This document shows positions 3,491 to 16,245 of a stretch of DNA of 36,571 nucleotides, piece by piece (position 1 is the first letter of the stretch; the number at the start of each line of letters is the position of its first letter). The DNA comes from Syntrophaceae bacterium. GTDB lineage: Bacteria; Desulfobacterota; BSN033; UBA1163. The translations under genes and the position numbers were made by a program. The DNA lies in NCBI GenBank assembly GCA_018333715.1, contig JAGXSW010000069.1:1-36571 (forward strand). The letters are read 5' to 3'. The notes beneath the pieces are model-generated. The model saw only the letters and a program-made list of their open reading frames with translations. It did not search any database and had not been told where the DNA came from.

Positions 3491-3564
3491 TCGGATAGTC
3501 AAATAGTCGATTAGTCGTATAGTGAAAGACTAAAAGACTATGAGACTATATGACTCTAGGACTA
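3488..3564. repeat. beaded hairpin: 5 x TAGTC words (period 8) facing 5 x GACTA words (period 8)
   Basis: tagtc at 3488, 3496, 3504, 3512 and (tagtg) 3520. gacta at 3528, 3536, 3544, (gactc) 3552 and 3560. Symmetric about 3526. The first word contains the folD stop; the last ends 3 nt before ATG 3568. Confidence 0.85.
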
Positions 3565-3567
3565 ATC

Positions 3568-4317
3568 ATGAAGATTGCGGTCTCCGGCAAGGGGGGGACG
3601 GGTAAGACGACCATAGCCGCTCTGATTCTCCGTTACCTCCTCCAGAAAAACTACAAACCCATTCTCGCTGTCGATGCCGACCCCAACTCCAACTTCGGCG
3701 ATGCCCTTGGCGTGAAGGTGCAAAGCACGGTTGGAAAGGTTTTGGACGGTTTTTTAAAGGATAAAGAGAGCCTGGCGATGGGAGTGGTCAAGGAGTCCCT
3801 GATTGACTACAAACTCTCGGAGATCCTGGCCGAAGAGAAGGGTTTTGATCTCTTGAGCATGGGACAGGGAGAAGGACCGGGCTGTTACTGTTATCCCAAT
3901 ACCATCATCCGGAATTACATTGAAAAGCTCGCTTCCAACTATAAACATGTGGTGATCGATAATGAAGCGGGAATGGAGCACATCTCAAGGAGGACCAACG
4001 GGAGCCTCGATGTGCTCTTTCTGGTCTCCGATCCATCCATGAAGGGAATCAGGACCTGCAAGAAACTCGAAGACCTGGTCAGCGAATTGGGTTTAAACAT
4101 CAAAAAGACTTACCTGCTCATCAACAGGGTCTCACACGAGACTCCGCCTCAGATAGAGGAGGAGATTAAGAGATTGAATCTCAACCTTCTCGAAATCATC
4201 CCGGAAGACGAACATATTGTTGACTATGAACTGAGAGGGATCGCCATGCTCAATTTAGAAGAGTCAAGCCCCTCTGTCATCAAAATAACGGAGGCCATGG
4301 CAAAGATATTTCCATGA
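3568..4317 (+). CDS. cooC: CooC/AcsF-type Ni-insertion ATPase for CODH/ACS
   Basis: P-loop GKGGTGKTT at the N-terminus, CooC-type CxC motif GPGCYCYP, MinD-like fold. Start MKIAVSGKGG (3568) is preferred; ATG 3550 is possible. Confidence 0.85.
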   Translation: MKIAVSGKGGTGKTTIAALILRYLLQKNYKPILAVDADPNSNFGDALGVKVQSTVGKVLDGFLKDKESLAMGVVKESLIDYKLSEILAEEKGFDLLSMGQGEGPGCYCYPNTIIRNYIEKLASNYKHVVIDNEAGMEHISRRTNGSLDVLFLVSDPSMKGIRTCKKLEDLVSELGLNIKKTYLLINRVSHETPPQIEEEIKRLNLNLLEIIPEDEHIVDYELRGIAMLNLEESSPSVIKITEAMAKIFP

Positions 4318-4328
4318 AACCATAACCC

Positions 4329-4386
4329 GTAACTTAGCCCTTTAGGGATGAGTTTTCAGGGCTCCTGCGGCAGGGCCCTGAGTTAC
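4329..4386. repeat. REP-like multi-hairpin unit (outer stem gtaacttag/ctgagttac)
   Basis: 9-bp outer stem (one G-U) encloses the small hairpins ccctttaggg and agggc...gccct. Confidence 0.5.
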
Positions 4387-4446
4387 ATATTCGACAAAGC
4401 ATTTATCCTTCATAATTGAGGGATTACAAAAGTGAGACAAATTCCA

Positions 4447-4476
4447 TTGACAACCTTTTGTAAAAAGTTTTACACT
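4447..4476 (+). promoter_or_regulatory. candidate sigma70-like promoter for the acsE operon
   Basis: TTGACA (4447-4452), 18-nt spacer, TACACT (4471-4476), within a 292-nt non-coding gap. Confidence 0.3.
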
Positions 4477-4498
4477 TATTTGTGAAATATTTCGTTAA

Positions 4499-4593
4499 CC
4501 CCGTTAGAAATTCCAGCGGGGCATTAAGTCCCGCCGGAATAATTCTGAAATGTAACACCGCTGCAGAGCAGTGGGGCATTATTTCTAACGGGG
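4499..4593 (+). promoter_or_regulatory. structured 5' leader element directly upstream of the acsE SD
   Basis: Perfect 13-bp outer stem ccccgttagaaat (4499-4511) / atttctaacgggg (4581-4593) encloses two inner hairpins. SD aggagg (4599-4604) starts 6 nt after it. Confidence 0.4.
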
Positions 4594-4609
4594 TAAAAAG
4601 GAGGAACGT

Positions 4610-5482
4610 ATGATTTTAATTGGGGAAAATATTCAAATTCTATCAAAAGTCGTTTCCAATGCCCTGAAAGAAAAGGATGAAAAACCATTGCAGGAACTTG
4701 CAATCAAACAGGCCAAGGCAGGGGCTGACTACATCGATCTCAATATCGGTCCCGCAAGAAAAGACCCCGAAGTGATGAAGTGGCTTGCGGGGGTCATTCA
4801 GGAGGTCGTCAAAAAGCCCCTTTCGCTGGATACGACCAATCCGGTTGCCATGGAGGCAGGTCTCTCCGTATGCAAAATTCCCCCATTGATCAATTCCGCT
4901 TCCGGCAAGCAGGAGAGCAAGGAGAAGATGCTTCCACTGGCCGCCAAGTATAATTGTGATGTTGTCCTTTCGGTGTTGATCGATGCAGGAATACCAACCG
5001 ATTCCTCATCGAGAGCAGAGGCGATTATGGAGACGGTCGCCTATGCCAATGAGATTGGAATCCCCAATGAAAGGATCTGGGTCGACCCCATTATGATGCC
5101 CATCTCGGTCGATCAACCTCAGGTCGTTGAGCTTTTTGAGTTTATGAAGATCCTCCAGGATATCTGTCCGGGCGCCAAATCAACTCTGGGTCTTTCCAAT
5201 ATCTCCAATGGCACTCCTGAGCACTTAAGAGGGATATTAAACCGTATCTGCCTGGCGATGCTCGATCGATATGGCTGTTTTTCCGCCATTGTGGATAGCT
5301 TTGATGAGGAACTGGTAAAGCTCGCCAAGGGACAATTGCCGGACATCAAAAATTTGATCTACAGAGCCATGGATGAAGAGGTGGATACATCCAGCCTTCC
5401 AAAAAAAGAAACAGACATTGTCAAGACGGTCAACGTGATCATGGGAAGATCCCTCTACTCCCATTCGTGGTTGGAAACATAG
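4610..5482 (+). CDS. acsE: methyl-THF:corrinoid Fe-S protein methyltransferase
   Basis: 290 aa pterin-binding (DHPS-like) barrel: MILIGENIQ, DYIDLNIGP, SLDTTNP, LGLSNISNG. Strong SD. Confidence 0.9.
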   Translation: MILIGENIQILSKVVSNALKEKDEKPLQELAIKQAKAGADYIDLNIGPARKDPEVMKWLAGVIQEVVKKPLSLDTTNPVAMEAGLSVCKIPPLINSASGKQESKEKMLPLAAKYNCDVVLSVLIDAGIPTDSSSRAEAIMETVAYANEIGIPNERIWVDPIMMPISVDQPQVVELFEFMKILQDICPGAKSTLGLSNISNGTPEHLRGILNRICLAMLDRYGCFSAIVDSFDEELVKLAKGQLPDIKNLIYRAMDEEVDTSSLPKKETDIVKTVNVIMGRSLYSHSWLET

Positions 5483-5483
5483 T

Positions 5484-5553
5484 GACACGAATATCACGAA
5501 TAAAAACGAATGAAACGAATATTCGTGTGATTCGTTCTCATTCGTGCCATTCG
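5484..5553. repeat. palindromic word array: 4 x ACGAAT facing 4 x ATTCGT
   Basis: acgaat at 5487, 5496, 5506 and 5515. attcgt at 5521, 5530, 5540 and 5549. Spacer lengths 3, 4, 3 are mirrored on both arms. Centre is at 5520/5521. Confidence 0.85.
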
Positions 5554-5573
5554 ATAATAAAAAGGAGGCAAGT

Positions 5574-6476
5574 ATGCAACTCAACGATTTTTTTGAACCC
5601 TATAAGGGTGAAACTAAAGAGGTCGCCATCGGACCTTCAGGTAAAGCAGTGAAACTGGGCGGCGAGCAGACCCTGCCCTTCCATGCTTTTGAAGGAAAAG
5701 AGGGAGCGCCTGTTCGATTCGCTCTGGAAGTGTTTGATGCCCCTCCCGAAGGCTGGCCGGAACACCTCCGTTCCTCTTATGCGGATGTCCTCTCGGACCC
5801 CGTGGCCTGGGCGGATAAATGCACAAACCAATACGGCGCTGACCTGATCTCCCTTTATCTATCCAGTCTGGATAGCGAGAATGCTGATCCCACAAAAATC
5901 GCCGAAAAGGTGAAAGACATTGCAGACCACATCTCCGTTCCTCTCATTGTCCTGGGGGTTGGGGATAAGGATAAGGATGCAAAAGCCCTCGTCGAAATAG
6001 CCAGGGTCTGCACGGGCAAAAATCTCCTCCTCGGCCCCCTGGTAAAAGAAAATTATGAGGAGATTGCAAAGGCCGCACTGGAGGGAGGGCACAGTATTAT
6101 TCCTCAGAGCCCTCTCGACATCAATCTCTGCAAGGAACTCAATGTGAAATTGGCCAAGTTCTTCCCGAAGGAGAGGGTCGTCATCGACCCCTTATCCGCA
6201 GCCATCGGCTATGGAATCGATTACTCCTTCTCGATTATGGAGCGGGTCAAGCAGGTGGCGGTCATTCATAATGACGAAATGATGAAGGTCCCCATGGTTG
6301 CCAATATCGGAAAGGACTGCTGGAAGACAAAGGAGGCTAAGGAAGATAAAACTCAGGGAATACTTTGGGAAGCCCTGACGGCTTTCACCCTGATTTTAGC
6401 CGGGGCAAACCTTGTGATCATGCGGCACCCGGAGAGTTTGAAACTGGTCAAAAAATTAGTTTCTGGAAAGGAGTAA
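5574..6476 (+). CDS. acsD: corrinoid Fe-S protein small subunit (ACDS delta)
   Basis: About 300 aa TIM-barrel protein next to acsE and cdhA, similar to CdhD/AcsD. SD aggagg (5564-5569) favours ATG 5574 over the ORF-track start 5544. Confidence 0.85.
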   Translation: MQLNDFFEPYKGETKEVAIGPSGKAVKLGGEQTLPFHAFEGKEGAPVRFALEVFDAPPEGWPEHLRSSYADVLSDPVAWADKCTNQYGADLISLYLSSLDSENADPTKIAEKVKDIADHISVPLIVLGVGDKDKDAKALVEIARVCTGKNLLLGPLVKENYEEIAKAALEGGHSIIPQSPLDINLCKELNVKLAKFFPKERVVIDPLSAAIGYGIDYSFSIMERVKQVAVIHNDEMMKVPMVANIGKDCWKTKEAKEDKTQGILWEALTAFTLILAGANLVIMRHPESLKLVKKLVSGKE

Positions 6477-6479
6477 CCC

Positions 6480-8783
6480 ATGAGTAAAGGAGCTGTGAAA
6501 CAAAAGGAGATCAATAAGATTATCAGGGCGGAAGATAACTGGGAACCAGTTGGTCCAACCCCTATGCCGGAAATATCCGATTTGCGACGATGGGATATGC
6601 GGCTTTTGAAGACTTATAAACCTTTTTATGCCCCCTTCTGCGACGTCTGCTGTTTCTGCACTTACGGAAAATGCGATCTCACCGAGGATAAGAAGGGCGC
6701 CTGCGGCATCAATATCGCGGGCCAGCAGGGAAGATGGGGGTTGATGTTCTCCCTGATGGGATGCTCGGCCCATGGCGCCCACGCTCGCCATCTGGTGGAC
6801 TACCTCATCGAGAAGTACGGTGAAGATTATAAGATCGATCTGGGCGGCCAGGTGGATGTGGAAGCGCCCCATATGAGGACGGTCATGGGGCTCAAGCCGG
6901 AGACGCTGGGCGATCTTAAAAAGGGGATTGAATATGTGGAGAGGGGCATCATCCATGGTGTCTCAGCCACCCATATGGGACAGGAGGGAAGCGATCTTGA
7001 TTTCGAGTCCAAATCCATGCACATCGGGATGCTCGATCATGTGGCCATGGAGGTTGCGGACATTGCCCAGACCATTGGATTCAAGTTCCCAACCTCTGTC
7101 GCTGAAACGCCTCTTTCAGGCCTGGGTTGGGGTTCGGTTGACAAAGACAAACCCGTTGTCACCTGCGTGGGACATAATGCCGCAGTAGCGACGGTGATGA
7201 TTGACCATCTGATGAAAGCGGGCATATACGATCAGGTGGAAGTCACAGGGATCTGCTGCACGTCCCATGACAATATCCGGTATTCGGACAAGGCAAAGAT
7301 CATCGGGCCCCTTTCAAAACAGATATTTTTTCTGAAGACAGGGATTGCAGATCTGGTAATGACCGACGAACAGTGCGTGCGGTGCGATATTCCTGAACTG
7401 GCAAAAGCCACGGGCAGCGCACTGATCGCCACATCCGACAAGATTAGCTATGGTCTTGATGATATGACCCACAAGGAGGTTGATGAGATTGTCCGGCTGG
7501 TCGTGGAGGAGGGCAAACAGGTCTTGATCCGTGACGTGGACAAAGCAGGAGAAGTCGCTGCCAAAGTTCTTCCACTTGTCGCTAAAAACCGGAAGGACAA
7601 GAAAGTGATTGTCACAAAGGATATGGCGCAGGAATTGGCTCAGACCTGTAAGACCTGTCAACTCTGTGACCGGGTCTGCCCCAACTTCCTGAATATCTCA
7701 GACGCCCTTGCCGATGTGCAGAAAGGGAAATTTGACCTCATGAGCGCAGTCTTTGCAAGATGCGTGGGCTGCGGAAAATGTGAGCAGGAATGCGCAAAGG
7801 AAGTGCCCATCATCAAGATCATGCAGGCGGCAGCCTCCTGGGACACCTATAATATCAGAGTTGGAAGAGGGCCGATCCAGGACGTGGAGATCAGAAAGGT
7901 GGGGGCGCCGATTGTCTTAGGGACCATTCCGGGTATTATCGCCATTGTCGGCTGCTCCAACTATCCTGAAGAGATTGAGGAAGTCGCTGAAATCGCCGAG
8001 GAGTTTGCAAAGCGGAAATATATCGTCGTCCTTTCCGGCTGTGCCGCCATGGCCGCCGGGATGAAAAAGGATGCCGAGGGAAAAACCATCTATGATAAGT
8101 ATAAACCCGAGTTTGACGCAGGCGGTGTGCTCAATGTGGGAAGCTGTGTCGCTAATGCCCATATCACCGGAGCAGCCATGAAGGTCGCCAACATCTTCGC
8201 CAAGCTGCCGCTGCGGGCTAACTACGAGGTCATTGCCGACTATATTCTGAATCGGGTAGGAGCCGTGGGTCTGGTCTGGGGCTCTTACTCCCAGAAGGCC
8301 TTTACCATTGGAACGGGATGCAATCGCATGGGCATTCCTGTTGTCCTCGGTCCCCATTCTGCGAAATACCGGAGACTCTATCTATCGAGAAAGGAAGAGG
8401 ACGACTGGACCGTTATGGACGGAAGAAAGAAGGAACTCGTCAACACCGAGGAGCCTTCTCCCGAACATCTGATGGTCGTCACTGAAAGCAAAGAGCGGGC
8501 CATGATCACCCTTGCGAGGCTCTGTATTCGGAAGAACGATACCGCCCAAGGAAGGCAGATCAAACTGAATCACTACATCTCTCTCTATAAACAGCATATG
8601 GGTTCCCTTCCCGATGATCTGCAGAACTTTGTAAGGAACGACAAGGACATACCCATCGTCTATAAGAAAGAGGTGAGTGAATATCTGAAGACAGTGGGTT
8701 GGAAACCTAAACCCCTTCTCACCTTACCCACCTTTATCGGGACATATGAAAGCAATATCCCCATCGATGCGGTGGTTAAATGA
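6480..8783 (+). CDS. cdhA: archaeal-type CO dehydrogenase catalytic subunit (ACDS alpha)
   Basis: 767 aa. N-terminal Cys cluster FCDVCCFCTYGKCDL...GACGI. Internal 2x[4Fe-4S] insertion CKTCQLCDRVCP / CVGCGKCEQEC, typical of CdhA rather than the bacterial AcsA/CooS. Confidence 0.9.
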   Translation: MSKGAVKQKEINKIIRAEDNWEPVGPTPMPEISDLRRWDMRLLKTYKPFYAPFCDVCCFCTYGKCDLTEDKKGACGINIAGQQGRWGLMFSLMGCSAHGAHARHLVDYLIEKYGEDYKIDLGGQVDVEAPHMRTVMGLKPETLGDLKKGIEYVERGIIHGVSATHMGQEGSDLDFESKSMHIGMLDHVAMEVADIAQTIGFKFPTSVAETPLSGLGWGSVDKDKPVVTCVGHNAAVATVMIDHLMKAGIYDQVEVTGICCTSHDNIRYSDKAKIIGPLSKQIFFLKTGIADLVMTDEQCVRCDIPELAKATGSALIATSDKISYGLDDMTHKEVDEIVRLVVEEGKQVLIRDVDKAGEVAAKVLPLVAKNRKDKKVIVTKDMAQELAQTCKTCQLCDRVCPNFLNISDALADVQKGKFDLMSAVFARCVGCGKCEQECAKEVPIIKIMQAAASWDTYNIRVGRGPIQDVEIRKVGAPIVLGTIPGIIAIVGCSNYPEEIEEVAEIAEEFAKRKYIVVLSGCAAMAAGMKKDAEGKTIYDKYKPEFDAGGVLNVGSCVANAHITGAAMKVANIFAKLPLRANYEVIADYILNRVGAVGLVWGSYSQKAFTIGTGCNRMGIPVVLGPHSAKYRRLYLSRKEEDDWTVMDGRKKELVNTEEPSPEHLMVVTESKERAMITLARLCIRKNDTAQGRQIKLNHYISLYKQHMGSLPDDLQNFVRNDKDIPIVYKKEVSEYLKTVGWKPKPLLTLPTFIGTYESNIPIDAVVK

Positions 8784-9490
8784 AGACACTCATCATCTAT
8801 GACGGAGATTACGGCAAACGGTTCTGGGAAAACATCAGCCGTCATGCTCCAAAACAGTGGGAGGTCCAGGGGTTCCACTATTCTAAAAAGATCCCCCGTT
8901 TTGTCGAAGAGCTTTCCGATTACCTTCCGGGGGACCTCCCCAACTGCGATCTCCTGATCTCCGTTCAGGAGCAACCGGTCCTGGCTGAAATGATCCCCCT
9001 GTTTATAAAAAAGATGGGCGCCAGGGCTGTCATCGCTCCGATTGACAGCAAGGCTTACTTGACTTCAGGTTTGGCAAGACAACTTAAGAAGAAGCTCGAA
9101 AAAGATGGGGTTGAGCTCATCCACCCGATGACCTTTTGCACATTATCGGAGAAGATGTCAAAGAATGAGCTCATTCTGGAGTTTGTCAAATACTTTGGCA
9201 AACCGGAAGTGGAAATTGAAATAGAAAACGAAAAGGTAAAAAAGGTCACGGTCATCAAGGAAGCCCCCTGCGGGAACACGAGGTATGTCGCTGAACATCT
9301 CATCGGAACCCACATCAAGGATGCGGTGGAAAAGGCCGGCATCCTCCACCATAACCATCCCTGCATGGCCGCCATGGTGATGGATGCGGAAATTGGCGAC
9401 ACCCTGATGCATCATGCGGGGTTACAGATCAAGCTGGCCGTGGATGAAGCCATCAAAAAAACAGTGATTCGTGCCTGCACGCCGAAGTGA
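8780..9490 (+). CDS. uncharacterised Cys/His-rich protein inserted between cdhA and cdhB (possibly DUF166/COG1810-like)
   Basis: ATGA start/stop overlap with cdhA. 236 aa with motifs APCGNTRY, HHNHPCMAAM and LMHHAG. The N-terminus MKTLIIYDGDYGKRF reminds me of DUF166 proteins (recollection, unverified). Confidence 0.6.
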   Translation: MKTLIIYDGDYGKRFWENISRHAPKQWEVQGFHYSKKIPRFVEELSDYLPGDLPNCDLLISVQEQPVLAEMIPLFIKKMGARAVIAPIDSKAYLTSGLARQLKKKLEKDGVELIHPMTFCTLSEKMSKNELILEFVKYFGKPEVEIEIENEKVKKVTVIKEAPCGNTRYVAEHLIGTHIKDAVEKAGILHHNHPCMAAMVMDAEIGDTLMHHAGLQIKLAVDEAIKKTVIRACTPK

Positions 9491-9587
9491 CGGCGTTCCG
9501 GCACGCAGGCGTGAATCGTGATTCGTAACATCTTCAACGATTCACCCTTCACCCTTCACAACTCACAAAAGAAATGGAGGAGAAAAA

Positions 9588-10124
9588 ATGAGCTTACCAT
9601 ACTATCACGTCAACGTATTCACAGGGATTAAGTCGTGCAAGGTGATGGAGGATCCTCAAACCCTTGCCAAGATCGCCAAAAAGGCCCAGCGACCCCTTCT
9701 TGTTCTGGGGCCTAAATGCGGCGAAGTGAATCTCGGAGGAAAACAGCTTCTTGATTATGGCATCGAGATTGCGAAAACCCTTGGCGCTGCCATCTGTGCA
9801 ACAGCAAACATCAAGAAGAAGCTCCTGGAGGCGGGGGTGACGCCTGATTCCACTTACGATGCGGTCGAGATCATCAACCATCTTAAAGACTCTGATTGGA
9901 AGGGTGTTAAAAAAGAGGGAAACCATGATTTTGTCATGTTTCTGGGAATCAGACCGGATCTGGGAAATCAGGGATTATCCACACTGAAGCATTTCGCCGG
10001 CCATCTCAAGACCGCCACCCTGTGTAAATATGTCTTTCCCAACGCCAACTTCTCCCTTCCCAATCTGAAGGATGACAAGTGGAAAGAATATCTTGACAAT
10101 ATGATCCAGGGTTTAAAATCTTAA
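9588..10124 (+). CDS. cdhB: ACDS epsilon subunit
   Basis: 178 aa. The size, the position between cdhA and cdhC, and a Rossmann-like pattern (LLVLGPK...FVMFLGI) fit CdhB. SD ggagg. Confidence 0.7.
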   Translation: MSLPYYHVNVFTGIKSCKVMEDPQTLAKIAKKAQRPLLVLGPKCGEVNLGGKQLLDYGIEIAKTLGAAICATANIKKKLLEAGVTPDSTYDAVEIINHLKDSDWKGVKKEGNHDFVMFLGIRPDLGNQGLSTLKHFAGHLKTATLCKYVFPNANFSLPNLKDDKWKEYLDNMIQGLKS

Positions 10125-10162
10125 ATCTGAAAATAAAGAAGGAATAAAGAAAGGAGGAAAAC

Positions 10163-11365
10163 ATGTTTTCTGTCGATGTGGGACCTCAGTATGAAGGGGA
10201 AACCGTAAGAAAGGAAGATTTTCAAATTGAGTTCGGAGGGCCGAAGCATAAGTTCAAAGCGGAGCTGGTGACCGTCAAACCTGCCGCTGAAGTGGAAGAC
10301 GAAAAGATCGAGATCATCGGAAAGGACATCAAGGATTTTGAAGAGGGAGCGTCCGTTCCCATCTTCATTAAGATCGCTGTAGCCGGCGAGCAGCTCGAAA
10401 AAGATATGGAGCCCGTCTTTGAGCGCCGGGTCCACATGTATGTCAATTACATCGAGGGCTTCTGGCACATGGCTCAGAGGGACGAGATCTGGATGAGAAT
10501 CCATAAAGACAGTTTTAAAAAGGGCCTCAACTCCCTGGACGAGATCGGAAGGATTCTCGCAATGCTCTATAAAAATGAGCTTTCGATCATTGAAAAGATC
10601 CAGATCACTTTTATCACCGATCCTGAAAAGGTGGAAAAAGAAGTCCTTGAGGCAAGAGAGGTCTACAAGGCAAGGGATGACCGGCTGAAGGGAATCACCG
10701 AAGAAGAAGTGGATGAGTTCTATGGATGTTCTCTCTGCCAATCCTTTGCGCCCACCCATGTCTGCGTTGTCACTCCGGAGAGGGTTTCCCTCTGCGGAGC
10801 GATCAACTGGTTTGATGGAAGGGCCGCTTATAAGATGGACCCCGAAGGACCCCAGTTTGCCATCAAGAAAGGAGACCTTCTGGACCCGGAGAAATTTATC
10901 TACTCCGGAGTCAATGCCATCGTGGCAGAGAAGTCCCTTGGCAGCAATAGTGTATTCTGCCTCCACAGCGCACTGGAAAGCCCTCACACCTCTTGCGGAT
11001 GTTTCCAGGCCATCCTTTTTTATATCCCGGAGGTGGATGCCTTTGGTGTGGTTCACCGCGACTTTATGGGCGAGACCGTCACCGGTCAAAAATTTTCAGG
11101 CATCGCTGGAGAGGCCTCCGGTGGAAGGCAGAACGAGGGAATGCTCGGCCTGGCCATCTCTTACATGAAGTCAAAGAAATTCATTAAGACCGATGGAGGG
11201 TTAAAAAGGGTCGTCTGGCTCCCAAAAGGCATTAAAGAACAGATCAAAGATGTCCTCGATGAGGCAGGCATGTATGACAAAATTGCAACGGAAGAAGATG
11301 TGAAGAATGTGGATCAATTAACAGAATACATGAATCGAGTCGGACATCCCTGGGTAACAGGTTAA
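10163..11365 (+). CDS. cdhC: acetyl-CoA synthase catalytic subunit, short archaeal type (ACDS beta)
   Basis: A-cluster motifs CSLCQSFAPTHVCVVTPERVSLCG and SCGCF. At 400 aa it lacks the N-terminal domain of bacterial AcsB. Confidence 0.9.
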   Translation: MFSVDVGPQYEGETVRKEDFQIEFGGPKHKFKAELVTVKPAAEVEDEKIEIIGKDIKDFEEGASVPIFIKIAVAGEQLEKDMEPVFERRVHMYVNYIEGFWHMAQRDEIWMRIHKDSFKKGLNSLDEIGRILAMLYKNELSIIEKIQITFITDPEKVEKEVLEAREVYKARDDRLKGITEEEVDEFYGCSLCQSFAPTHVCVVTPERVSLCGAINWFDGRAAYKMDPEGPQFAIKKGDLLDPEKFIYSGVNAIVAEKSLGSNSVFCLHSALESPHTSCGCFQAILFYIPEVDAFGVVHRDFMGETVTGQKFSGIAGEASGGRQNEGMLGLAISYMKSKKFIKTDGGLKRVVWLPKGIKEQIKDVLDEAGMYDKIATEEDVKNVDQLTEYMNRVGHPWVTG

Positions 11366-11480
11366 TGGCCAATGACCAGTTTTCAATGATCAATTAGCAA
11401 TGGTCAATGATTGGTCTGTAAGAATCGGTTATTAAAATAATCAATGGTTATTGTCAATTGACCATTGATTATTGATTATT
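11366..11480. repeat. word-rich palindromic spacer (caatg/cattg, ggtcaat/attgacc)
   Basis: Includes a 10-bp perfect stem aatcaatggt (11439-11448) / accattgatt (11461-11470). Ends at the acsC SD. Confidence 0.6.
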
Positions 11481-11495
11481 TGAGAGGAGGATCTC

Positions 11496-12866
11496 ATGGC
11501 GCTTAAGGCTTCGGATATTCAGAAAAAACTGCCGGATGGCGGCAAAAAGAATTGCAAAGAATGCGGGTTCCCCACCTGTTTTGCCTTTGCAATGAAACTG
11601 GCATCGGGCGCAGTGACTGTGGATAAGTGTCCCTATCTGCCGGGCGAGATTAGAACAGAACTCGAAGAGGCATTGGCTCCACCCATCAGGCTGGTCACCA
11701 TCGGTGTGGGGGAAAATGCCATGAGTATTGGCGAGGAAGAGGTCATCTACCGACATGAAAAAACCTTTTACAGACCTTCCGGGATCGCCATCCTCATCAC
11801 CGACAAGGAAGATGAGGGAACCATCTCCGCTAAGATCAACAAGCTAAAGACACTCCAGTTTGACCGGGTGGGTCAGAAGCTGAAAGCGAATCTCTTCGCT
11901 TTGAAGTATGCGGGAAATGCTGAGAAGTATCTGGGCCTGGTAAAGAGGGCGGCCGCAGAAGGGTTTCCCATTATTTTAATCTGTGAAGACCTGGACACCC
12001 TGTTTAAAGCAAGGGATCTGATTGCAGATAAAAATCCCCTTCTCTACCCTATCACAAAAGAGAATCTGGATGCCGCTCTTCCGAAGATCAAGGCAAAACC
12101 TACGCCCATCGGAGTGAAGACCGGCGGAATTGAAGAAATCGTTCCCATCACCAAACGGCTCAAGGAAGAAGGCATTCTGGACATCGTCCTCGATCCTTCC
12201 CCTAAATCGTTGAAAGAGATGATCAGGGACTACACCCTTATCCGGAGGGCCGCCCTCAAGAAAACATTCCGGCCTCTGGGCTACCCCATCCTTTCTCTGC
12301 CCTGTATGCTCGCGGAAAATAAGATGGAGGAAATCCTTCTGGCATCGGCAGGAGTGATCAAGTATGCAGGCATCGTCGTCCTCTCCGATTTTGAAAAAGA
12401 GATGCTCTATCCTCTCCTTGTCTTAAGGCAAAACATCTTTACCGATCCGAGGGTTCCCCTTGCGGTGGAGCAGAAAATTTATGAAATCGGAACGGTCTCT
12501 ACCGAATCACCGGTGCTTCTGACGACCAATTTTGCGTTGACCTATTTTGCAGTGGCCAGTGAAATCGAAAATAGTAAAATTCCTGCCTATCTCTGCGTAA
12601 AAGATACGGAAGGTTTATGTGTGCTTGCAGCCTGGTCAACGGGAAAGTTTAGCGGAGACACGGCCGGGCCATTTCTCAAGAAAATAGGAGTCGGAGATAA
12701 AGTTAAGAATAAGAGGGTCATCATCCCTGGATTTGCCGCAAGGATCAAGGGAGAACTTGAAGAGGAATTACAGGGCTGGGAAGTGATTGTGGGTCCCCGT
12801 GAGGCAAGCGATCTGCCCGCCTTTCTTCCCCAGATGATTGAAAAATGGAAGAGTCAGAGCAAATAG
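11496..12866 (+). CDS. acsC: corrinoid Fe-S protein large subunit (ACDS gamma)
   Basis: N-terminal [4Fe-4S] motif CKECGFPTCFAFAMKLASG...DKCP. 456 aa. SD gaggagg. Confidence 0.9.
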   Translation: MALKASDIQKKLPDGGKKNCKECGFPTCFAFAMKLASGAVTVDKCPYLPGEIRTELEEALAPPIRLVTIGVGENAMSIGEEEVIYRHEKTFYRPSGIAILITDKEDEGTISAKINKLKTLQFDRVGQKLKANLFALKYAGNAEKYLGLVKRAAAEGFPIILICEDLDTLFKARDLIADKNPLLYPITKENLDAALPKIKAKPTPIGVKTGGIEEIVPITKRLKEEGILDIVLDPSPKSLKEMIRDYTLIRRAALKKTFRPLGYPILSLPCMLAENKMEEILLASAGVIKYAGIVVLSDFEKEMLYPLLVLRQNIFTDPRVPLAVEQKIYEIGTVSTESPVLLTTNFALTYFAVASEIENSKIPAYLCVKDTEGLCVLAAWSTGKFSGDTAGPFLKKIGVGDKVKNKRVIIPGFAARIKGELEEELQGWEVIVGPREASDLPAFLPQMIEKWKSQSK

Positions 12867-13315
12867 AGGAGATCTTCAGGAGGTTCCATCCGGAGAGAGA
12901 AAATTTACTCCTTCTGCTGCAAGAGATTCAGGAGAAAGTGGGCTACCTCTCAAGGGGGGCGATGGAGAGCGTAGCTCATTTTTTCCATCTCCCTCCTTCT
13001 GAAATTTTTAGCATTGTCACCTTCTACAATCAGTTCAGAAGAAAGCCCCCTGGCCGCGACCCCGTCCATGTCTGTCTGGGGACCGCCTGCTACCTCCTGG
13101 GGGGGAACTTAATCCTCGATGCCTTCTCAAGGGAACTCCATATCGAAAAGGGGGATACGACAGAGGATGGAAATTTCAGCCTCGATGCCACAGCCTGTTT
13201 TGGGTGCTGTAATGTCGCCCCTGTGGTCAAGATCAACAGCCAGATCTACCCTAAAATGACTCCGGGAAAGGTGGAGGAAGTCATCATCAACCTTCGGGAC
13301 AAGGATAAAAACTAA
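12845..13315 (+). CDS. NuoE/HydC-like thioredoxin-fold [2Fe-2S] protein
   Basis: CLGTAC...CFGCCNVAP motif. 156 aa. Overlaps the acsC 3' end by 22 nt. Confidence 0.85.
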   Translation: MEESEQIEEIFRRFHPERENLLLLLQEIQEKVGYLSRGAMESVAHFFHLPPSEIFSIVTFYNQFRRKPPGRDPVHVCLGTACYLLGGNLILDAFSRELHIEKGDTTEDGNFSLDATACFGCCNVAPVVKINSQIYPKMTPGKVEEVIINLRDKDKN

Positions 13316-13361
13316 GCAAGGTTAATGGGTTAGGGTTATGAAGCCCGTTTCGCATATTATT

Positions 13362-13454
13362 GGTCTTATAGTCTTATGGTCGTATAGTCGTATAGTTTAG
13401 AACAAAAAGGTTAATTGACTATTAGACTATCTGACTATAAGACTAACTGACTTA
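13362..13454. repeat. beaded hairpin of the TAGTC/GACTA family
   Basis: Left-arm words (ggtc, atagtc, atggtc, atagtc, atagtt) at 13362-13397 with period 8. Right-arm words (gactat x3, gactaa, gactta) at 13417-13454 with period 8. Ends 2 nt before ATG 13457. Confidence 0.8.
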
Positions 13455-13456
13455 AG

Positions 13457-15340
13457 ATGACCTATTCACAAATCAGAGATCAGGCAATGGAATTCCGCCG
13501 GGAGAAAATGGCCGGCGGGACGCCCAAGATCTTTATCGGGTGCGCCACCTGTGGGGTATCGGTCGGCGCGCTTGAGGTGGCGGAGGCATTTGAAAAAGAG
13601 CTCATCAAACATAACCTCCAGGGAGAGATTATCAAACTGGGATGCCTGGGAATTTGTTTTGCCGAGCCCCTCGTCTATATCACGAAGCAAGGCAACCCCA
13701 CGATCTGCTATAAAAATCTGAAACCGGAAGACGCTTTTAGGATTGTTTACAACTACCTGATTGAAGATGATCCCTGTTTCGATCTGGCCATTGGGACCCT
13801 GGAGATAAAAGAAGGGGGTATTCCCTATATCCCGGAACTTGAAAGATTTGAAAAGGAGGAAAGAATCATCCTCCGGTATGCGGGACTAATCGACCCTGAA
13901 GAGATCAGGGATTATATCGCCCTGGGCGGCTATGAAGCGCTGGACAAAGCCCTATCCATGGGAAAAGAAGAGATCATCGGCGAGGTGAAGCGATCAGGGT
14001 TGAGGGGACTGGGAGGCGCCGGCTTTTCTGCAGGGATGAAATGGGAGGAATGTCTCAAGGCAAAGGAACATCCCAAATATATTGTGTGCAATGGAGATGA
14101 AGGCGATCCAGGCGCCTTCATGGACCGGGTCGTTCTTGAGAGCTCTCCTCACCAGGTCATCGAAGGAATGGCCATTGCTGGCTATTCACTCGACGCCCAC
14201 CAGGGCTACATCTACATCCGTTCAGAATATCCTCTTGCCATCCAAAAGGTCAATCATGCCTTAATGCAGGCCAGGGAGCATCGTCTGCTTGGGAAAGATA
14301 TTTTAGGAAAAGGGTTTGACTTCGACATAAAGGTTTATCCTGGAGCAGGAGCCTTTGTATGCGGTGAGTCCACCGCCCTGATGTATTCGATCGAGGGAAG
14401 AAGGCCCATGCCAAGGGTCAGACCGCCTCATTCTGTTGAGAAGGGCCTCTTTCGTAAACCCACTCTCTTAAATAATGTCAAAACCTTCTCCTGTATCCCC
14501 CCTATCCTGCTGAAGGGGGCGGAGTGGTTTTCAAAAATTGGGACCCTCCATTCGAAAGGGACCACCGTCTTCGCCCTGGCAGGAAAGATCAAGGAATCGG
14601 GTCTGGCTGAGGTGAGGATGGGAACCACCTTAAAAGAGGTCATTTATCAGATCGGAGGAGGGATTAAAGAGGATAAAAGGCTGAAGGCGATCCAGGTGGG
14701 AGGGCCTTCAGGCGGATGTATTCCCGCTCAATATATCGATACGCCGGTTGACTTCGACTCCTTAAAATTTCTTGGTTCGATGATGGGCTCCGGCGGACTG
14801 ATCGCAATGGATGATGAGACCTGCATGGTCGATATGGCCAAATACTTTCTCACTTTCATGCAGAGCGAGAGCTGCGGAAAGTGCACCTTCTGCCGGATAG
14901 GAACCAAGCATCTTCTTCTCCTGTTAGAGGAGATCACAAAGGGGGAAGGGACCCTGGATCATCTCCGCCTTCTCAAAGAACTTTCAGAGGAGATCGTTGA
15001 AGGCTCTCTGTGCGGCCTGGGGCAAACCGCTCCAAATCCCATCCTCACCACCCTGAGGTATTTCGAGAGCGAGTATATTGCCCATGTCGTTGAAAAGAGA
15101 TGTTCGGCTCTGGTCTGCCGCGATCTGATCTCCTATCTGATCGTTTATGATAAGTGCTGGAGAAGCTGTGAACACTGCGTCCTCAAGTGTCCGGCAGAGG
15201 CTATTCATCCGGATGAGAAGAACATCAAGATCATCGACCAAACCAAATGTGTGAAGTGCGGGATCTGTCTGGAGGTCTGCCCCAGGGAATATAATGCTGT
15301 GATCAAGGTCTCACCAAAGATAGGTGTAGCTCAGGATTAA
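13457..15340 (+). CDS. NuoF/HydB-like NADH- and FMN-binding Fe-S flavoprotein
   Basis: N-terminal thioredoxin-like 2Fe-2S domain, RGLGGAGFSAG, CNGDEGDPGAF, ESCGKCTFCR, and C-terminal ferredoxin motifs CWRSCEHCVLKCP / CVKCGICLEVCP. Confidence 0.9.
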   Translation: MTYSQIRDQAMEFRREKMAGGTPKIFIGCATCGVSVGALEVAEAFEKELIKHNLQGEIIKLGCLGICFAEPLVYITKQGNPTICYKNLKPEDAFRIVYNYLIEDDPCFDLAIGTLEIKEGGIPYIPELERFEKEERIILRYAGLIDPEEIRDYIALGGYEALDKALSMGKEEIIGEVKRSGLRGLGGAGFSAGMKWEECLKAKEHPKYIVCNGDEGDPGAFMDRVVLESSPHQVIEGMAIAGYSLDAHQGYIYIRSEYPLAIQKVNHALMQAREHRLLGKDILGKGFDFDIKVYPGAGAFVCGESTALMYSIEGRRPMPRVRPPHSVEKGLFRKPTLLNNVKTFSCIPPILLKGAEWFSKIGTLHSKGTTVFALAGKIKESGLAEVRMGTTLKEVIYQIGGGIKEDKRLKAIQVGGPSGGCIPAQYIDTPVDFDSLKFLGSMMGSGGLIAMDDETCMVDMAKYFLTFMQSESCGKCTFCRIGTKHLLLLLEEITKGEGTLDHLRLLKELSEEIVEGSLCGLGQTAPNPILTTLRYFESEYIAHVVEKRCSALVCRDLISYLIVYDKCWRSCEHCVLKCPAEAIHPDEKNIKIIDQTKCVKCGICLEVCPREYNAVIKVSPKIGVAQD

Positions 15341-15346
15341 AAGAAA

Positions 15347-15410
15347 TGTAGCGTCGGCATTTATTGCCGACGAAAAGGATCATTCGCCCTCAATAAATGA
15401 GGGCGCTACA
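15347..15410. repeat. modular two-hairpin REP-like unit (outer stem tgtagcg/cgctaca)
   Basis: Inner hairpins are tcggca-tttat-tgccga and gccctca-ataaa-tgagggc. The reverse complement shares its first 27 nt with the copy at 25554-25610. Confidence 0.8.
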
Positions 15411-15413
15411 CTA

Positions 15414-15486
15414 CTTATCGTCGTATAGTCAGATAGTCTTTTAGTCAATGACTATAAGACTACGAGACTATAAGACGATATGACTA
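15414..15486. repeat. beaded hairpin of the TAGTC/GACTA family
   Basis: Left words atcgtc, atagtc, atagtc, ttagtc (period 8), 3-nt loop aat, right words gactat, gactac, gactat, gacgat, gacta (period 8). The variant pair atCgtc/gacGat is compensatory. Confidence 0.85.
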
Positions 15487-15498
15487 AAAGGAAACAAC

Positions 15499-16245
15499 AT
15501 GCCATCCATAATCATTGATGGTAAAGAAATAACAGCAGATCCCGGAGAGAAGATCCTCTGGGCCGCTCTCCGTTCGGGGATCTACATCCCCAATCTCTGC
15601 GCCACCGAAGGCGCTGAACTGCCATTCGGAGGATGCCGTTTGTGCATTGTCGAAGTGGAAGTCGGAGGCCGCAGGGAGATGCTCACCGCCTGTTCGGAAA
15701 CAGTCCGTGAGCGGATGAAAGTCTACGTCCATACGGAAAAGATAGCGAGGATGAGACGCACAGCGTTTGAACTCATCATGAGCGACCATCACATCGACTG
15801 CAAAAATTGTGCGAAGGGGAAAACCTGCGAGCTGATCAGGATTTCCTCCACTTTGAAGTGGAGCCTCCGGCCCAAAACCCTGAGGGGCCTTGTCCGTGAT
15901 CTTCCCGTTGACGATTCCCATCCTCTCTTCGCTTATGATCCGAAAAAGTGTGTGAAATGCGGAAAATGTGTTTTCGTGTGCCAGGGTCTCGGGAAATCCT
16001 TTCTCGATTTTGCCTATAGAGGGTTTGAGATGGTTGTCACGACGTTTGATCATCTTCCCCTCTCTTCCCTGGGATGCAAATCCTGCCTGGAGTGTGTGAG
16101 GGTCTGTCCCACGGGCGCTCTCTATCTTAAAGAGACCTCTAAAAACGTCATTCCGGCGAAAGCCGGAATCCAGCAACTTCTGACATCACCGGACCTCTGC
16201 TCTGGAGGTTCCCTTAAAGAGACCGGAGGCCTGGGAGATGGATAG
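15499..16245 (+). CDS. NuoG/HydA N-terminal-like Fe-S protein (2Fe-2S, His-ligated 4Fe-4S, 2x 4Fe-4S), no catalytic domain
   Basis: CATEG...CRLCIVEV...ACSE, HHIDCKNCAKGKTC, CVKCGKCVFVC, CKSCLECVRVCPTG. Only 248 aa. The last ~30 aa are encoded by a REP-like hairpin region. Confidence 0.8.
   Translation: MPSIIIDGKEITADPGEKILWAALRSGIYIPNLCATEGAELPFGGCRLCIVEVEVGGRREMLTACSETVRERMKVYVHTEKIARMRRTAFELIMSDHHIDCKNCAKGKTCELIRISSTLKWSLRPKTLRGLVRDLPVDDSHPLFAYDPKKCVKCGKCVFVCQGLGKSFLDFAYRGFEMVVTTFDHLPLSSLGCKSCLECVRVCPTGALYLKETSKNVIPAKAGIQQLLTSPDLCSGGSLKETGGLGDG
16150..16169. repeat. REP-like hairpin attccggc-gaaa-gccggaat inside the 3' end of the NuoG-like CDS
   Basis: Perfect 8-bp stem with a GAAA loop. 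The same stem (ttccggc/gccggaa) recurs at 31631-31670. Confidence 0.8.

What the first reader, a model, noticed from the sequence alone, without database searches (positions are those of the whole stretch)
8780..9490. Unassigned 236-aa Cys/His-rich ORF translationally coupled between cdhA and cdhB
To my knowledge, in archaeal-type ACDS operons cdhB directly follows cdhA. Here a 236-aa ORF is wedged between them, and its ATG overlaps the cdhA stop (ATGA at 8780-8783), which suggests co-translation with the CODH subunit. It matches none of the five ACDS subunits or CooC. Its C-terminal half carries potential metal ligands (APCGNTRY, HHNHPCMAAM, LMHHAG). The N-terminus reminds me of DUF166/COG1810 proteins, a family once claimed to be an archaeal thymidylate synthase; this link is unverified recall. 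It could be a maturation or metal-handling factor, or an extra subunit of this CODH/ACS.
Basis: partly seen in the sequence, partly recalled or inferred. Interest (0 to 1): 0.65.

Follow-up and report, generated by a model that had tools for sequence, protein, structure and literature searches.

The report
DUF166 accessory gene inside CODH/ACS operon
The gene wedged between cdhA and cdhB is a real, conserved member of the poorly understood DUF166 family, already shown genetically in a methanogen to be needed for CO2 fixation by CODH/ACS, and it most likely helps build or service that enzyme's metal-sulfur clusters.

Summary
A 236-aa ORF lies at 8780-9490 (+), and its ATG overlaps the cdhA stop (ATGA). 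The "thymidylate synthase" label has no support.

Close homologues sit inside cdh/acs clusters in at least 9 lineages, including ANME-1 archaea, at varying positions in the cluster. Natural fusions exist to a CooS-type CODH, to NuoE and to ferredoxin domains. A 2024 preprint showed that deleting the M. maripaludis DUF166 gene abolishes autotrophy, so the CODH/ACS link is already published.

Three cysteines (C120, C164, C195) are near-universal across the family, and H211 is common. The C-terminal domain weakly but consistently resembles IscU/SufU iron-sulfur scaffolds. Other family members sit beside SufCB, ferritin or Fur genes.

My best reading is a U-type-scaffold-like maturation factor for the CODH/ACS clusters. 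That mechanism is inferred, not shown. The rivals are an electron-transfer subunit and a nickel chaperone.

Verdict: a new member of a known but biochemically uncharacterised family, of moderate interest.

The parts
8780..9490 (+). DUF166-family ORF (236 aa), the finding itself
   Evidence: ORF list. PF02593 E=2.5e-57, full length. 107 close homologues, all PF02593. AF2 model pLDDT 94.7, pTM 0.90.
8780..8783 (+). ATGA start/stop overlap with cdhA (likely translational coupling)
   Evidence: Sequence. The same overlap is conserved in L001-L012. Other lineages have 13-25 nt gaps with GGAGG-like sites.
8771..8775 (+). SD-like GGTGG, 4 nt upstream of the ATG, inside the cdhA coding sequence
   Evidence: Sequence. 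Function inferred.
8780..9148 (+). N-terminal alpha/beta (Rossmann-like) domain, residues 1-123, with a GxxGxR loop (G9, G12, R14) after strand 1. It ends at the invariant C120 (codon 9137-9139).
   Evidence: Secondary structure of the model. Conservation. No significant PDB fold match.
9149..9457 (+). C-terminal alpha+beta domain, residues 124-226, carrying C164 (9269-9271), H190/H191 (9347-9352), C195 (9362-9364) and H211 (9410-9412). Candidate IscU/SufU-like cluster-binding domain.
   Evidence: Invariant in the 36-sequence alignment and in the best DUF166 match of each of the 80 loci. C120 111/111, C164 104/111, C195 101/109, H211 84/104 among <50%-identity representatives. Domain model pLDDT 89.8. 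Foldseek top hits are mostly IscU/SufU, E 0.04-2, TM up to 0.55. hhalign aligns C164 with IscU C63, P about 1e-3.
9459..9550 (.). Lineage-specific palindromic insertion that supplies the ORF's last ~9 codons (including the non-conserved C233), its stop codon and part of the spacer before cdhB
   Evidence: Absent from L001-L003. Stable hairpins, z=-3.7. No T-run terminator. The core recurs in many metatranscriptome contigs with unrelated flanks.
6480..8783 (+). cdhA (CODH alpha subunit), upstream partner
   Evidence: TIGR00314 1041 bits; Prismane + Fer4.
9588..10124 (+). cdhB (epsilon subunit), downstream partner
   Evidence: TIGR00315 123 bits; PF02552.
3550..4317 (+). CooC/AcsF-type P-loop ATPase in the same cluster (Ni-insertion accessory protein)
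   Evidence: PF01656 CbiA family. CooC homologues lie next to DUF166 in L035. The preprint reports a cooC2-duf166 operon in M. maripaludis.

Best explanation
The ORF encodes a DUF166-family accessory protein of the archaeal-type CODH/ACS. It is transcribed with cdhA and probably translationally coupled to it.

It has two domains. The first is an N-terminal Rossmann-like domain. The second is a C-terminal alpha+beta domain. Together with C120 at the domain junction, the C-terminal domain offers a Cys3(+His) site (C120, C164, C195, H211, with H190/H191 nearby).

I propose that this site transiently holds an Fe-S cluster or its building blocks, in the manner of U-type scaffolds (IscU/SufU/NifU). 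The protein would then deliver, assemble or repair the Fe-S framework of the CODH/ACS metalloclusters. The most likely client is the C-cluster of the Prismane-family subunit CdhA, and the protein would act alongside the Ni-inserting ATPase CooC.

Shown: family membership, conserved linkage to cdh/acs genes, the fusions, and the conserved Cys triad. Taken from the literature: the requirement for CODH/ACS-dependent autotrophy in M. maripaludis. Inferred: metal or cluster binding, the scaffold-like mechanism, the client, and the coupling of translation.
For: (1) Full-length PF02593 match.
(2) 33 of the 80 best genome loci have the gene inside cdh/acs clusters. They span Thermodesulfobacteriota, Bacillota, Coprothermobacterota, WS2, Dehalococcoidia, NPL-UPA2, Planctomycetia, Anaerolineales and ANME-1. 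The gene occupies at least 5 different positions in these clusters, which argues for selection on linkage rather than inheritance of a single arrangement.
(3) Rosetta-stone fusions. DUF166-CooS (TIGR01702, 712 bits) sits at the end of a cooC-acsE-cdhDABCE operon. DUF166-NuoE and DUF166-2x[4Fe-4S] ferredoxin fusions also exist. This resembles NifU, a U-type scaffold fused to a [2Fe-2S] redox domain (my knowledge).
(4) M. maripaludis: a clean duf166 deletion cannot fix CO2 and is complemented in trans. The gene is cofit at r=0.94-0.99 with the cdh genes and cooC2 (bioRxiv 10.1101/2024.03.05.583561).
(5) C120, C164 and C195 are near-universal in 111 representatives below 50% identity.
(6) For the C-domain model, about 35 of the top 50 PDB matches are IscU/SufU (best E 0.039; 4eb7_C prob 0.92, TM 0.53). 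hhalign's only alignment puts C164 on IscU C63 within the same strand-strand-Cys-helix-'G..x[DE]A' element.
(7) Non-cdh family members sit in SufC-SufB-DUF166 operons (6 loci). Others sit beside ferritin (5 loci), two Fur genes, or NifX-like and Mrp-like genes. In Methanococcales they lie near SufCB and HCP.
(8) Metatranscriptome contigs from ~90%-identical relatives span the cdhA/DUF166 junction.
Against: The IscU/SufU resemblance is not statistically significant. Foldseek E is at least 0.04. hhalign probability is 11-23%. There is no NifU_N Pfam hit even at E<=10.

Permanent fusion to NuoE or ferredoxin domains, and to CooS, would also suit a stable electron-transfer module.

Selenocysteine forms of the family exist (NF041372; PMC9312934, PMC1976440). 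These point to redox or Ni chemistry rather than a plain Fe-S ligand, and the Sec position could not be mapped.

The SufCB, ferritin and Fur contexts each come from a single clade, and they mix with arsenic-type genes (ArsP_2, LMWPc, FMN reductase).

Many Anaerolineae homologues have no informative neighbours.

The M. maripaludis protein sequence could not be retrieved, so orthology, as opposed to shared family, is untested.
Confidence: 0.45

Rival explanations
1. DUF166 is a stable redox subunit or adaptor. It would carry its own Fe-S cluster and wire the CdhA/CdhB CODH module to the NuoE/NuoF-like NAD(P)H module encoded downstream of cdhE. On this view it is an electron-transfer component, not a maturation factor.
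For: Fusions to NuoE (P0058-60; followed by NuoF, a NuoG/Fdh-like gene and CdhC) and to 2x[4Fe-4S] ferredoxin domains. NuoE and NuoF genes follow cdhE in nearly all bacterial cdh clusters that carry DUF166. In L013 and L017-L019 DUF166 sits beside NuoEFG. There is a fusion to CooS. Start/stop coupling to cdhA suggests matched synthesis.
Against: The archaeal loci with DUF166 show no NuoEF genes in the flanks scanned: ANME-1 L035 and the Methanococcales loci. M. maripaludis DUF166 pairs with cooC2 and is still essential for autotrophy. Purified archaeal ACDS is a five-subunit complex with no DUF166 polypeptide (established knowledge, not tested here). The SufCB, ferritin and Fur contexts do not fit a CODH-specific wire. 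The gene's position in the cluster is highly variable.
Confidence: 0.25
2. DUF166 is a nickel metallochaperone or storage protein, functionally analogous to CooT/CooJ/HypA. It would bind Ni at the Cys/His site and hand it to CooC/AcsF for insertion into the C- or A-cluster.
For: A His-rich motif (LHHNHPC) lies next to conserved Cys. The gene is adjacent to cooC in ANME-1 (L035) and forms an operon with cooC2 in M. maripaludis. Sec-containing relatives recall Ni-Sec ligation in [NiFeSe] hydrogenases (my knowledge). NikR lies ~8 kb upstream in M. igneus.
Against: H190 and H191 are conserved in only ~55-60% of family representatives, whereas the three Cys are near-universal. The SufCB, ferritin and Fur neighbours point to Fe/S rather than Ni. 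The fold hits are IscU/SufU, not known Ni chaperones.
Confidence: 0.15
3. DUF166 is a thiol/selenol-based redox or sulfur-relay protein, for example a partner of LMWPc/ArsC-type reductases or a SufU-like Zn-dependent sulfurtransferase. Its role in the cdh cluster would be to keep CODH/ACS cysteines or clusters reduced, as a reductive repair factor.
For: LMWPc lies immediately upstream in two Methanococcales genomes. An Isf-like FMN-reductase-LMWPc fusion lies immediately downstream in 6 deltaproteobacterial loci. Selenoprotein forms exist. The top Foldseek hits are SufU sulfurtransferases.
Against: There is no LMWPc gene in the window's cluster. There is no CxxC-type redox pair among the conserved Cys. 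This reading overlaps heavily with the best explanation and cannot be separated from it here.
Confidence: 0.1
4. The protein is a thymidylate synthase, as many database names state.
For: Only inherited names such as 'thymidylate synthase' on homologues.
Against: DUF166 was the only Pfam family reported at E<=0.01, so neither ThyA nor ThyX matched. No ThyA/ThyX fold appeared among the Foldseek matches listed. The genomic context is CODH/ACS, Suf or iron genes, never nucleotide metabolism. The M. maripaludis phenotype is specific to autotrophy.
Confidence: 0.01

Closest known systems
DUF166 protein MMP_RS05055 (MMP0976) of Methanococcus maripaludis (Day et al., bioRxiv 10.1101/2024.03.05.583561)
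   Same: Same Pfam family (PF02593). Encoded next to CODH/ACS genes and a CooC paralogue. Genetically required for CODH/ACS-dependent CO2 fixation, which is the function inferred here. COG1810 has the same phyletic pattern as cdhB in methanogens plus A. fulgidus (PMC1852104).
   Different: In M. maripaludis it lies in a separate, divergent cooC2-duf166 operon. Here it sits between cdhA and cdhB with a start/stop overlap, in a bacterium whose cluster also carries NuoEF-like genes. Many archaeal-type members carry an extra CxxC...CxxC insert that is absent here. I could not obtain its sequence, so identity and orthology are not measured.
U-type Fe-S scaffolds and sulfurtransferases: IscU, SufU, NifU N-domain (PF01592)
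   Same: A small alpha+beta domain with helix, beta-hairpin, Cys at a helix N-terminus, a 'G-x-x-x-x-[DE]-A' helix, a His-(x)-Cys before the C-terminal helix, and a 3 Cys + His/Asp ligand set. These are the best structural matches of the C-domain. Some relatives follow SufC-SufB, as sufU does in Bacillus. Fusion to redox Fe-S domains parallels NifU.
   Different: No significant sequence or profile similarity. The first Cys (C120) comes from the preceding domain/linker instead of the IscU C37 loop. There is an extra ~15-residue excursion between C195 and the last helix, and an additional N-terminal Rossmann-like domain. Not a member by any family model.
CODH/ACS nickel-insertion accessory proteins CooC/AcsF (and CooT/CooJ)
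   Same: Non-catalytic genes embedded in CODH/ACS clusters that are required for active enzyme. DUF166 repeatedly neighbours CooC.
   Different: CooC/AcsF are P-loop ATPases (PF01656), and the window has its own at 3550-4317. DUF166 has no P-loop model match and an unrelated fold.
DfsP, the DUF166 family (seleno)protein subfamily (NCBIfam NF041372)
   Same: Same superfamily. Alignment spans residues 4-225.
   Different: Score is 72 bits against a cutoff of 200. There is no in-frame TGA/Sec here or in any of the 80 loci. It is therefore a different subfamily.

Membership tests
DUF166 (Pfam PF02593 / COG1810) | Whole-protein HMM score above the gathering threshold, with full-length coverage | tested here: met
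   194.4 bits against 24.4. Residues 4-226 match profile positions 1-220 of 221.
DUF166 (Pfam PF02593 / COG1810) | Family-wide conserved residues (PxPFC, G.P, PCG, HHxxPC, DT.xH motifs) | tested here: met
   C120, G140, P142, P163-C164-G165, C195 and H211 are all present. Conservation measured.
DfsP selenoprotein subfamily (NCBIfam NF041372) | Score at or above the curated equivalog cutoff (200 bits); Sec or the cognate Cys at the DfsP site | tested here: not met
   72.1 bits. No in-frame TGA. The Sec position in DfsP could not be mapped.
CODH/ACS-linked DUF166 accessory gene (as in M. maripaludis) | Encoded in or beside a cdh/acs cluster with a CooC-type gene | tested here: met
   Lies between cdhA and cdhB, with CooC at 3550-4317 in the same cluster. 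33 of 80 homologous loci are cdh/acs-linked.
CODH/ACS-linked DUF166 accessory gene (as in M. maripaludis) | Required for CODH/ACS-dependent autotrophy | not testable with these tools
   Shown only for M. maripaludis by deletion and complementation.
IscU/SufU/NifU_N U-type scaffold (PF01592) | Sequence or profile match to the family model | tested here: not met
   No NifU_N hit at E<=10 for 19 C-domains. No IscU/SufU in the PDB profile search. hhalign probability 0.6-23%.
IscU/SufU/NifU_N U-type scaffold (PF01592) | Shared fold with three Cys (+His/Asp) converging on one site | tested here: inconclusive
   Foldseek: about 35 of the top 50 hits are IscU/SufU, but E is 0.04-2 and TM 0.37-0.55.
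ACDS structural subunits CdhA-E and CooC | Match to any subunit or CooC family model | tested here: not met
   Only DUF166 matched in Pfam. NCBIfam gave only DfsP (72 bits, sub-cutoff) and one far-sub-cutoff hit to an unrelated model, and no Cdh or CooC model.
Thymidylate synthase (ThyA PF00303 / ThyX PF02511) | Family model match or ThyA/ThyX fold | tested here: not met
   Pfam returned only DUF166 at E<=0.01. No ThyA/ThyX appeared among the Foldseek matches listed.

The most novel reading that the evidence does not exclude
DUF166 is a previously unrecognised, very divergent U-type (IscU/SufU-like) scaffold fused to a Rossmann-like domain. It would be dedicated to assembling the non-cubane metal-sulfur clusters of Prismane-superfamily enzymes: the CODH C-cluster in CdhA/CooS and possibly the hybrid cluster of HCP. 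If so, it is the missing Fe-S-framework step that precedes CooC-dependent Ni insertion.
Probability: 0.25. Interest if true: 0.8.

Novelty: new member of a known kind. Interest (0 to 1): 0.45.

Why it matters
CODH/ACS is the core enzyme of the Wood-Ljungdahl pathway and one of the oldest carbon-fixing machines. Nickel insertion by CooC is understood. As far as I know, how the unusual Fe-S frameworks of its C- and A-clusters are built is not.

DUF166 is a small family: 551 clusters at 50% identity among 1.84 billion representatives. It is almost unstudied, and it is genetically essential for autotrophy in one methanogen.

This survey shows three things. The gene is embedded in cdh operons across bacteria and archaea. 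It is fused in nature to CODH and to redox domains. It also sits elsewhere beside SufCB, ferritin and Fur genes. Together these give a concrete biochemical hypothesis that can be tested.

If the hypothesis is correct, co-expressing DUF166 could also help heterologous production of active CODH/ACS. This particular window adds only one more instance of a common arrangement.

Tried and rejected
- PDB sequence search with the protein and with the C-domain profile found nothing relevant.
- Foldseek with the full-length model gave only noise: KaiC and Rossmann-type proteins, TM<=0.32.
- Pfam at E<=10 on 19 C-domains gave only DUF166.
- I tried to locate the selenocysteine position of DfsP-type relatives. 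There was no in-frame TGA in the 80 loci. Truncated database fragments showed no pattern at the Cys positions. The selenoprotein papers give no motif, and a literature search for 'DfsP' found nothing.
- I tried to obtain the M. maripaludis DUF166 sequence. The third protein search, seeded with a Methanococcales member, returned only Methanocaldococcus, Methanotorris and Methanothermococcus proteins.
- A profile search with distant members (A2) mostly re-found close relatives.
- The promoter/terminator scan of 4300-13500 found nothing above the shuffle expectation, so it supports nothing either way.
- A literature search for cdhA + cdhB + 'thymidylate synthase' gave no papers.
- Rejected: a spurious ORF (deep conservation) and thymidylate synthase (no family or fold support).
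- Model coordinates are not exposed, so Cys/His distances and a complex with CdhA/CdhB could not be examined.
Full report
OBSERVATION.
The ORF is real. It runs from 8780 to 9490 on the + strand and encodes 236 aa. Its ATG at 8780 overlaps the cdhA stop as ATGA, and a GGTGG lies 4 nt upstream. The neighbours are unambiguous: cdhA (TIGR00314, 1041 bits) upstream and cdhB (TIGR00315, 123 bits) downstream.

The window as a whole is a complete Wood-Ljungdahl gene cluster. In order it carries RACo, FolD, CooC/AcsF, AcsE, CdhD, CdhA, the ORF, CdhB, CdhC and CdhE. These are followed by NuoE-, NuoF- and NuoG-N-like genes, DUF3786, HdrA/MvhD-like genes and MetV/MetF. The closest public relatives are Thermodesulfobacteriota/Deltaproteobacteria MAGs (L001 at 95% and L002 at 94% protein identity), and the sequence occurs in subsurface metagenomes.

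WHAT IT IS.
The whole protein matches Pfam DUF166 (PF02593) at E=2.5e-57 over 220 of 221 profile positions. It matches the NCBIfam selenoprotein subfamily DfsP only weakly (72 bits against a cutoff of 200).

The family is small. A profile search of 1.84 billion representatives found 551 clusters. No member has a solved structure detectable by sequence.

AlphaFold2 gives a confident two-domain model (pLDDT 94.7). The N-terminal domain is a Rossmann-like alpha/beta domain. The C-terminal domain is an alpha+beta domain. The full model has no meaningful PDB neighbour.

CONSERVATION.
In 36 homologues down to 34% identity, the following residues are invariant: C120, C164, G165, H190, H191, C195, M199, D207-H211 and G214. 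The best DUF166 match in each of the 80 genomic loci keeps C120, C164, G165, H190, H191, C195 and H211, with single substitutions only at M199 and D207. The second tandem copies in L013 and L019 carry H211R, and the L013 copy also H190S. The motif around H211 was used to find those loci and is therefore biased.

Among 111 full-length representatives below 50% identity, C120 is present in 111/111, C164 in 104/111, C195 in 101/109 and H211 in 84/104. H190 and H191 are present in only about 55-60%.

H193, H212 and C233 are not conserved. The ORF's last ~9 codons, including C233, come from a ~95-nt palindromic insertion that the closest relatives lack.

GENOMIC CONTEXT ELSEWHERE.
A scan of one genome per GTDB species found 351 loci encoding relatives. 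I examined the best 80 by tblastn with the window's proteins. Thirty-three of them place DUF166 inside cdh/acs clusters. These come from:
- Thermodesulfobacteriota
- Peptococcaceae and other Bacillota
- Coprothermobacterota
- WS2 (Psychracetigena)
- Dehalococcoidia
- NPL-UPA2
- Syntrophomonadaceae
- Planctomycetia
- Anaerolineales (with bacterial-type acsA/acsB)
- the archaeon ANME-1

The position in the cluster varies:
- cdhA-DUF166-cdhB, the commonest arrangement, about 20 loci
- cdhB-DUF166-cdhC
- acsE-DUF166-cdhD
- cooC-DUF166-cdhA, in ANME-1
- beside NuoEFG, sometimes as tandem paralogues

Linkage that survives this much rearrangement indicates a functional tie. The ATGA overlap itself is conserved in the 11 orthologous loci L001-L012. 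Other lineages have 13-25 nt spacers, mostly with SD-like purine-rich (GAGG/GGAGG-type) sites.

Metatranscriptome contigs from ~90%-identical relatives span the cdhA/DUF166 junction. This is consistent with co-transcription, although DNA carry-over cannot be excluded and the contigs are not from this exact organism.

FUSIONS.
- P0215 is DUF166 fused to a complete CooS-type CODH (TIGR01702, 712 bits). It sits at the end of a cooC-acsE-cdhD-cdhA-cdhB-cdhC-cdhE operon in which cdhA and cdhB are adjacent.
- P0058-60 are DUF166-NuoE fusions, followed by NuoF, a NuoG/Fdh-like gene and CdhC.
- P0179 and P0195 carry a C-terminal 2x[4Fe-4S] ferredoxin domain.

OTHER CONTEXTS OF THE FAMILY.
- Six deltaproteobacterial loci share ArsP_2 - SufC - SufB/D - DUF166 - (Isf-like FMN reductase + LMWPc).
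- Five Anaerolineae loci have a divergent ferritin gene next door. One Aerophobetes locus is flanked by two Fur genes. Another is followed by MerR, a NifX-like protein and an Mrp/MinD-Fer4 ATPase.
- In two of the three Methanococcales genomes examined (L090, L091) the gene follows an LMWPc gene. All three have a Prismane-family gene within ~6 kb upstream (full-length, HCP-sized in L090 and L092; a fragment in L091). L091 also has SufC, SufB and an FMN reductase in that span.
- Two other archaeal contexts place it beside glutamate dehydrogenase.
- Many Anaerolineae copies have no informative neighbours.

LITERATURE.
'DUF166' as a whole word occurs in only four held papers.

The key one is a 2024 preprint (10.1101/2024.03.05.583561). 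In M. maripaludis the DUF166 gene MMP_RS05055 lies in an operon with cooC2 next to the CODH/ACS operon. It is cofit with all cdh genes at r=0.94-0.99. A clean deletion cannot fix CO2 and is complemented in trans. The authors propose an accessory role without a mechanism.

COG1810 was earlier listed, alongside cdhB, as specific to methanogens plus A. fulgidus (PMC1852104). Selenocysteine-containing members are catalogued (PMC1976440, PMC9312934, PMC13188914).

MECHANISM.
A separate model of the C-terminal domain (pLDDT 89.8) retrieves IscU/SufU scaffolds as about 35 of its top 50 PDB matches. The best E is 0.039. A. fulgidus IscU 4eb7_C has probability 0.92 and TM 0.53, and human ISCU reaches TM up to 0.55. 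None of these is individually significant.

Profile-profile comparison is likewise weak (P about 1e-3, probability 11-23%). Its only alignment, however, places C164 on IscU C63 within the same strand-strand-Cys-helix-'G....[DE]A' element. The order of elements also parallels IscU: helix, hairpin, Cys, two helices, His..Cys, C-terminal helix. The difference is that the first Cys (C120) comes from the domain junction.

This picture combines with the SufCB, ferritin and Fur neighbourhoods. It also fits the NifU-like logic of fusing a scaffold to a redox Fe-S domain (my knowledge of NifU and of the IscU-ferredoxin partnership). On that basis I favour a U-type-scaffold-like maturation factor. It would assemble, deliver or repair the Fe-S framework of CODH/ACS clusters together with CooC (confidence about 0.45).

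Rivals:
- A stable electron-transfer adaptor between CODH and the NuoEF-like module (0.25). The fusions favour it. The archaeal loci, which show no NuoEF genes in the flanks scanned, and the five-subunit composition of purified ACDS disfavour it.
- A nickel chaperone (0.15). The His-rich motif and the CooC adjacency favour it. The weaker conservation of the His residues and the Fe/S-type neighbours disfavour it.
- A thiol/selenol redox or sulfur-relay protein (0.1).
- Thymidylate synthase (about 0.01), supported only by inherited names.

LIMITS.
Model coordinates are not exposed, so the geometry of the putative site and any CdhA/CdhB interface were not examined. The Sec position in DfsP forms and the M. 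maripaludis sequence could not be obtained. Each non-cdh context is essentially one clade.

VERDICT.
The gene is a new member of a known, biochemically uncharacterised family whose link to CODH/ACS is already published. The arrangement seen here is the common one in bacterial archaeal-type cdh clusters. Interest is moderate (0.45). The value lies in the now-testable scaffold hypothesis rather than in this particular locus.

Noticed in passing
window 9459-9550: A ~95-nt palindromic insertion is absent from the closest relatives (L001-L003). It rewrites the last ~9 codons and the stop of the DUF166 ORF. It folds strongly (-47.8 kcal/mol, z=-3.7) and has no T-run. Its core (9468-9513) appears in many metatranscriptome contigs with unrelated flanks, which suggests a dispersed REP-like element.
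   Followed up: partly
window 12845-16245: NuoE-like (overlapping the cdhE stop by 22 nt), NuoF-like and NuoG-N-terminal-like genes follow cdhE. NuoE and NuoF genes follow cdhE in nearly all bacterial archaeal-type cdh clusters surveyed. This implies an NAD(P)H-linked module dedicated to this CODH/ACS.
   Followed up: partly
window 16238-16642: A DUF3786 gene closes the cdh-nuo block. It is conserved at the same place in the L001-L012 and Dehalococcoidia loci. It is another uncharacterised CODH/ACS-associated family.
   Followed up: no
window 11436-11473: A 38-nt hairpin-forming inverted repeat (15 pairs, G-T pairs allowed, around an 8-nt loop: AATAATCAATGGTTA...TGACCATTGATTATT) lies in the cdhC-cdhE spacer. 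It could be an operator or an RNA element.
   Followed up: no
L094 8001-10637 (also L095): A natural fusion of DUF166 to a full CooS-type CODH sits at the end of a cooC-acsE-cdhDABCE operon. In that operon cdhA and cdhB are directly adjacent.
   Followed up: partly
L023, L024, L027-L030 (e.g. L027 4848-9672): A conserved operon ArsP_2 - SufC - SufB/D - DUF166 - (Isf-like FMN reductase + LMWPc fusion) occurs in deltaproteobacterial MAGs that have no cdh genes nearby.
   Followed up: partly
L090 8571-9783; L091 2849-9783; L092 1-6735: In two of three Methanococcales genomes (L090, L091) DUF166 directly follows an LMWPc/ArsC-like gene. All three have a Prismane-family gene within ~6 kb upstream (full HCP-sized in L090 and L092, a fragment in L091). 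L091 also has SufC, SufB and an FMN reductase in that span.
   Followed up: partly
L051, L052, L057, L067, L072; L041 6639-9466; L034 1439-3963: Some Chloroflexota DUF166 genes are divergently paired with ferritin. One Aerophobetes copy is flanked by two Fur genes. Another is followed by MerR, a NifX-like protein and an Mrp/MinD-Fer4 ATPase.
   Followed up: partly
L013 8001-9446; L019 8001-9577: Tandem DUF166 paralogues lie next to NuoEFG in Bacillota cdh clusters. One copy has H211R (and H190S in L013), which hints at a heterodimer with one degenerate site.
   Followed up: no
L086 4247-6253; L089 6735-9113: Two unrelated archaeal DUF166 genes (Bathyarchaeia, and a 370-aa N-terminally extended form) each sit next to glutamate dehydrogenase on the same strand. 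This is unexplained.
   Followed up: no
Alignment A2 (e.g. P0183, P0192, P0215, P0233): Many distant, mostly archaeal-type DUF166 proteins carry an extra CxxC...CxxC(R) insert in the N-terminal domain. The window protein lacks it. The Anaerolineae clade instead has CCGC or VCGC in place of PCGN at C164.
   Followed up: no
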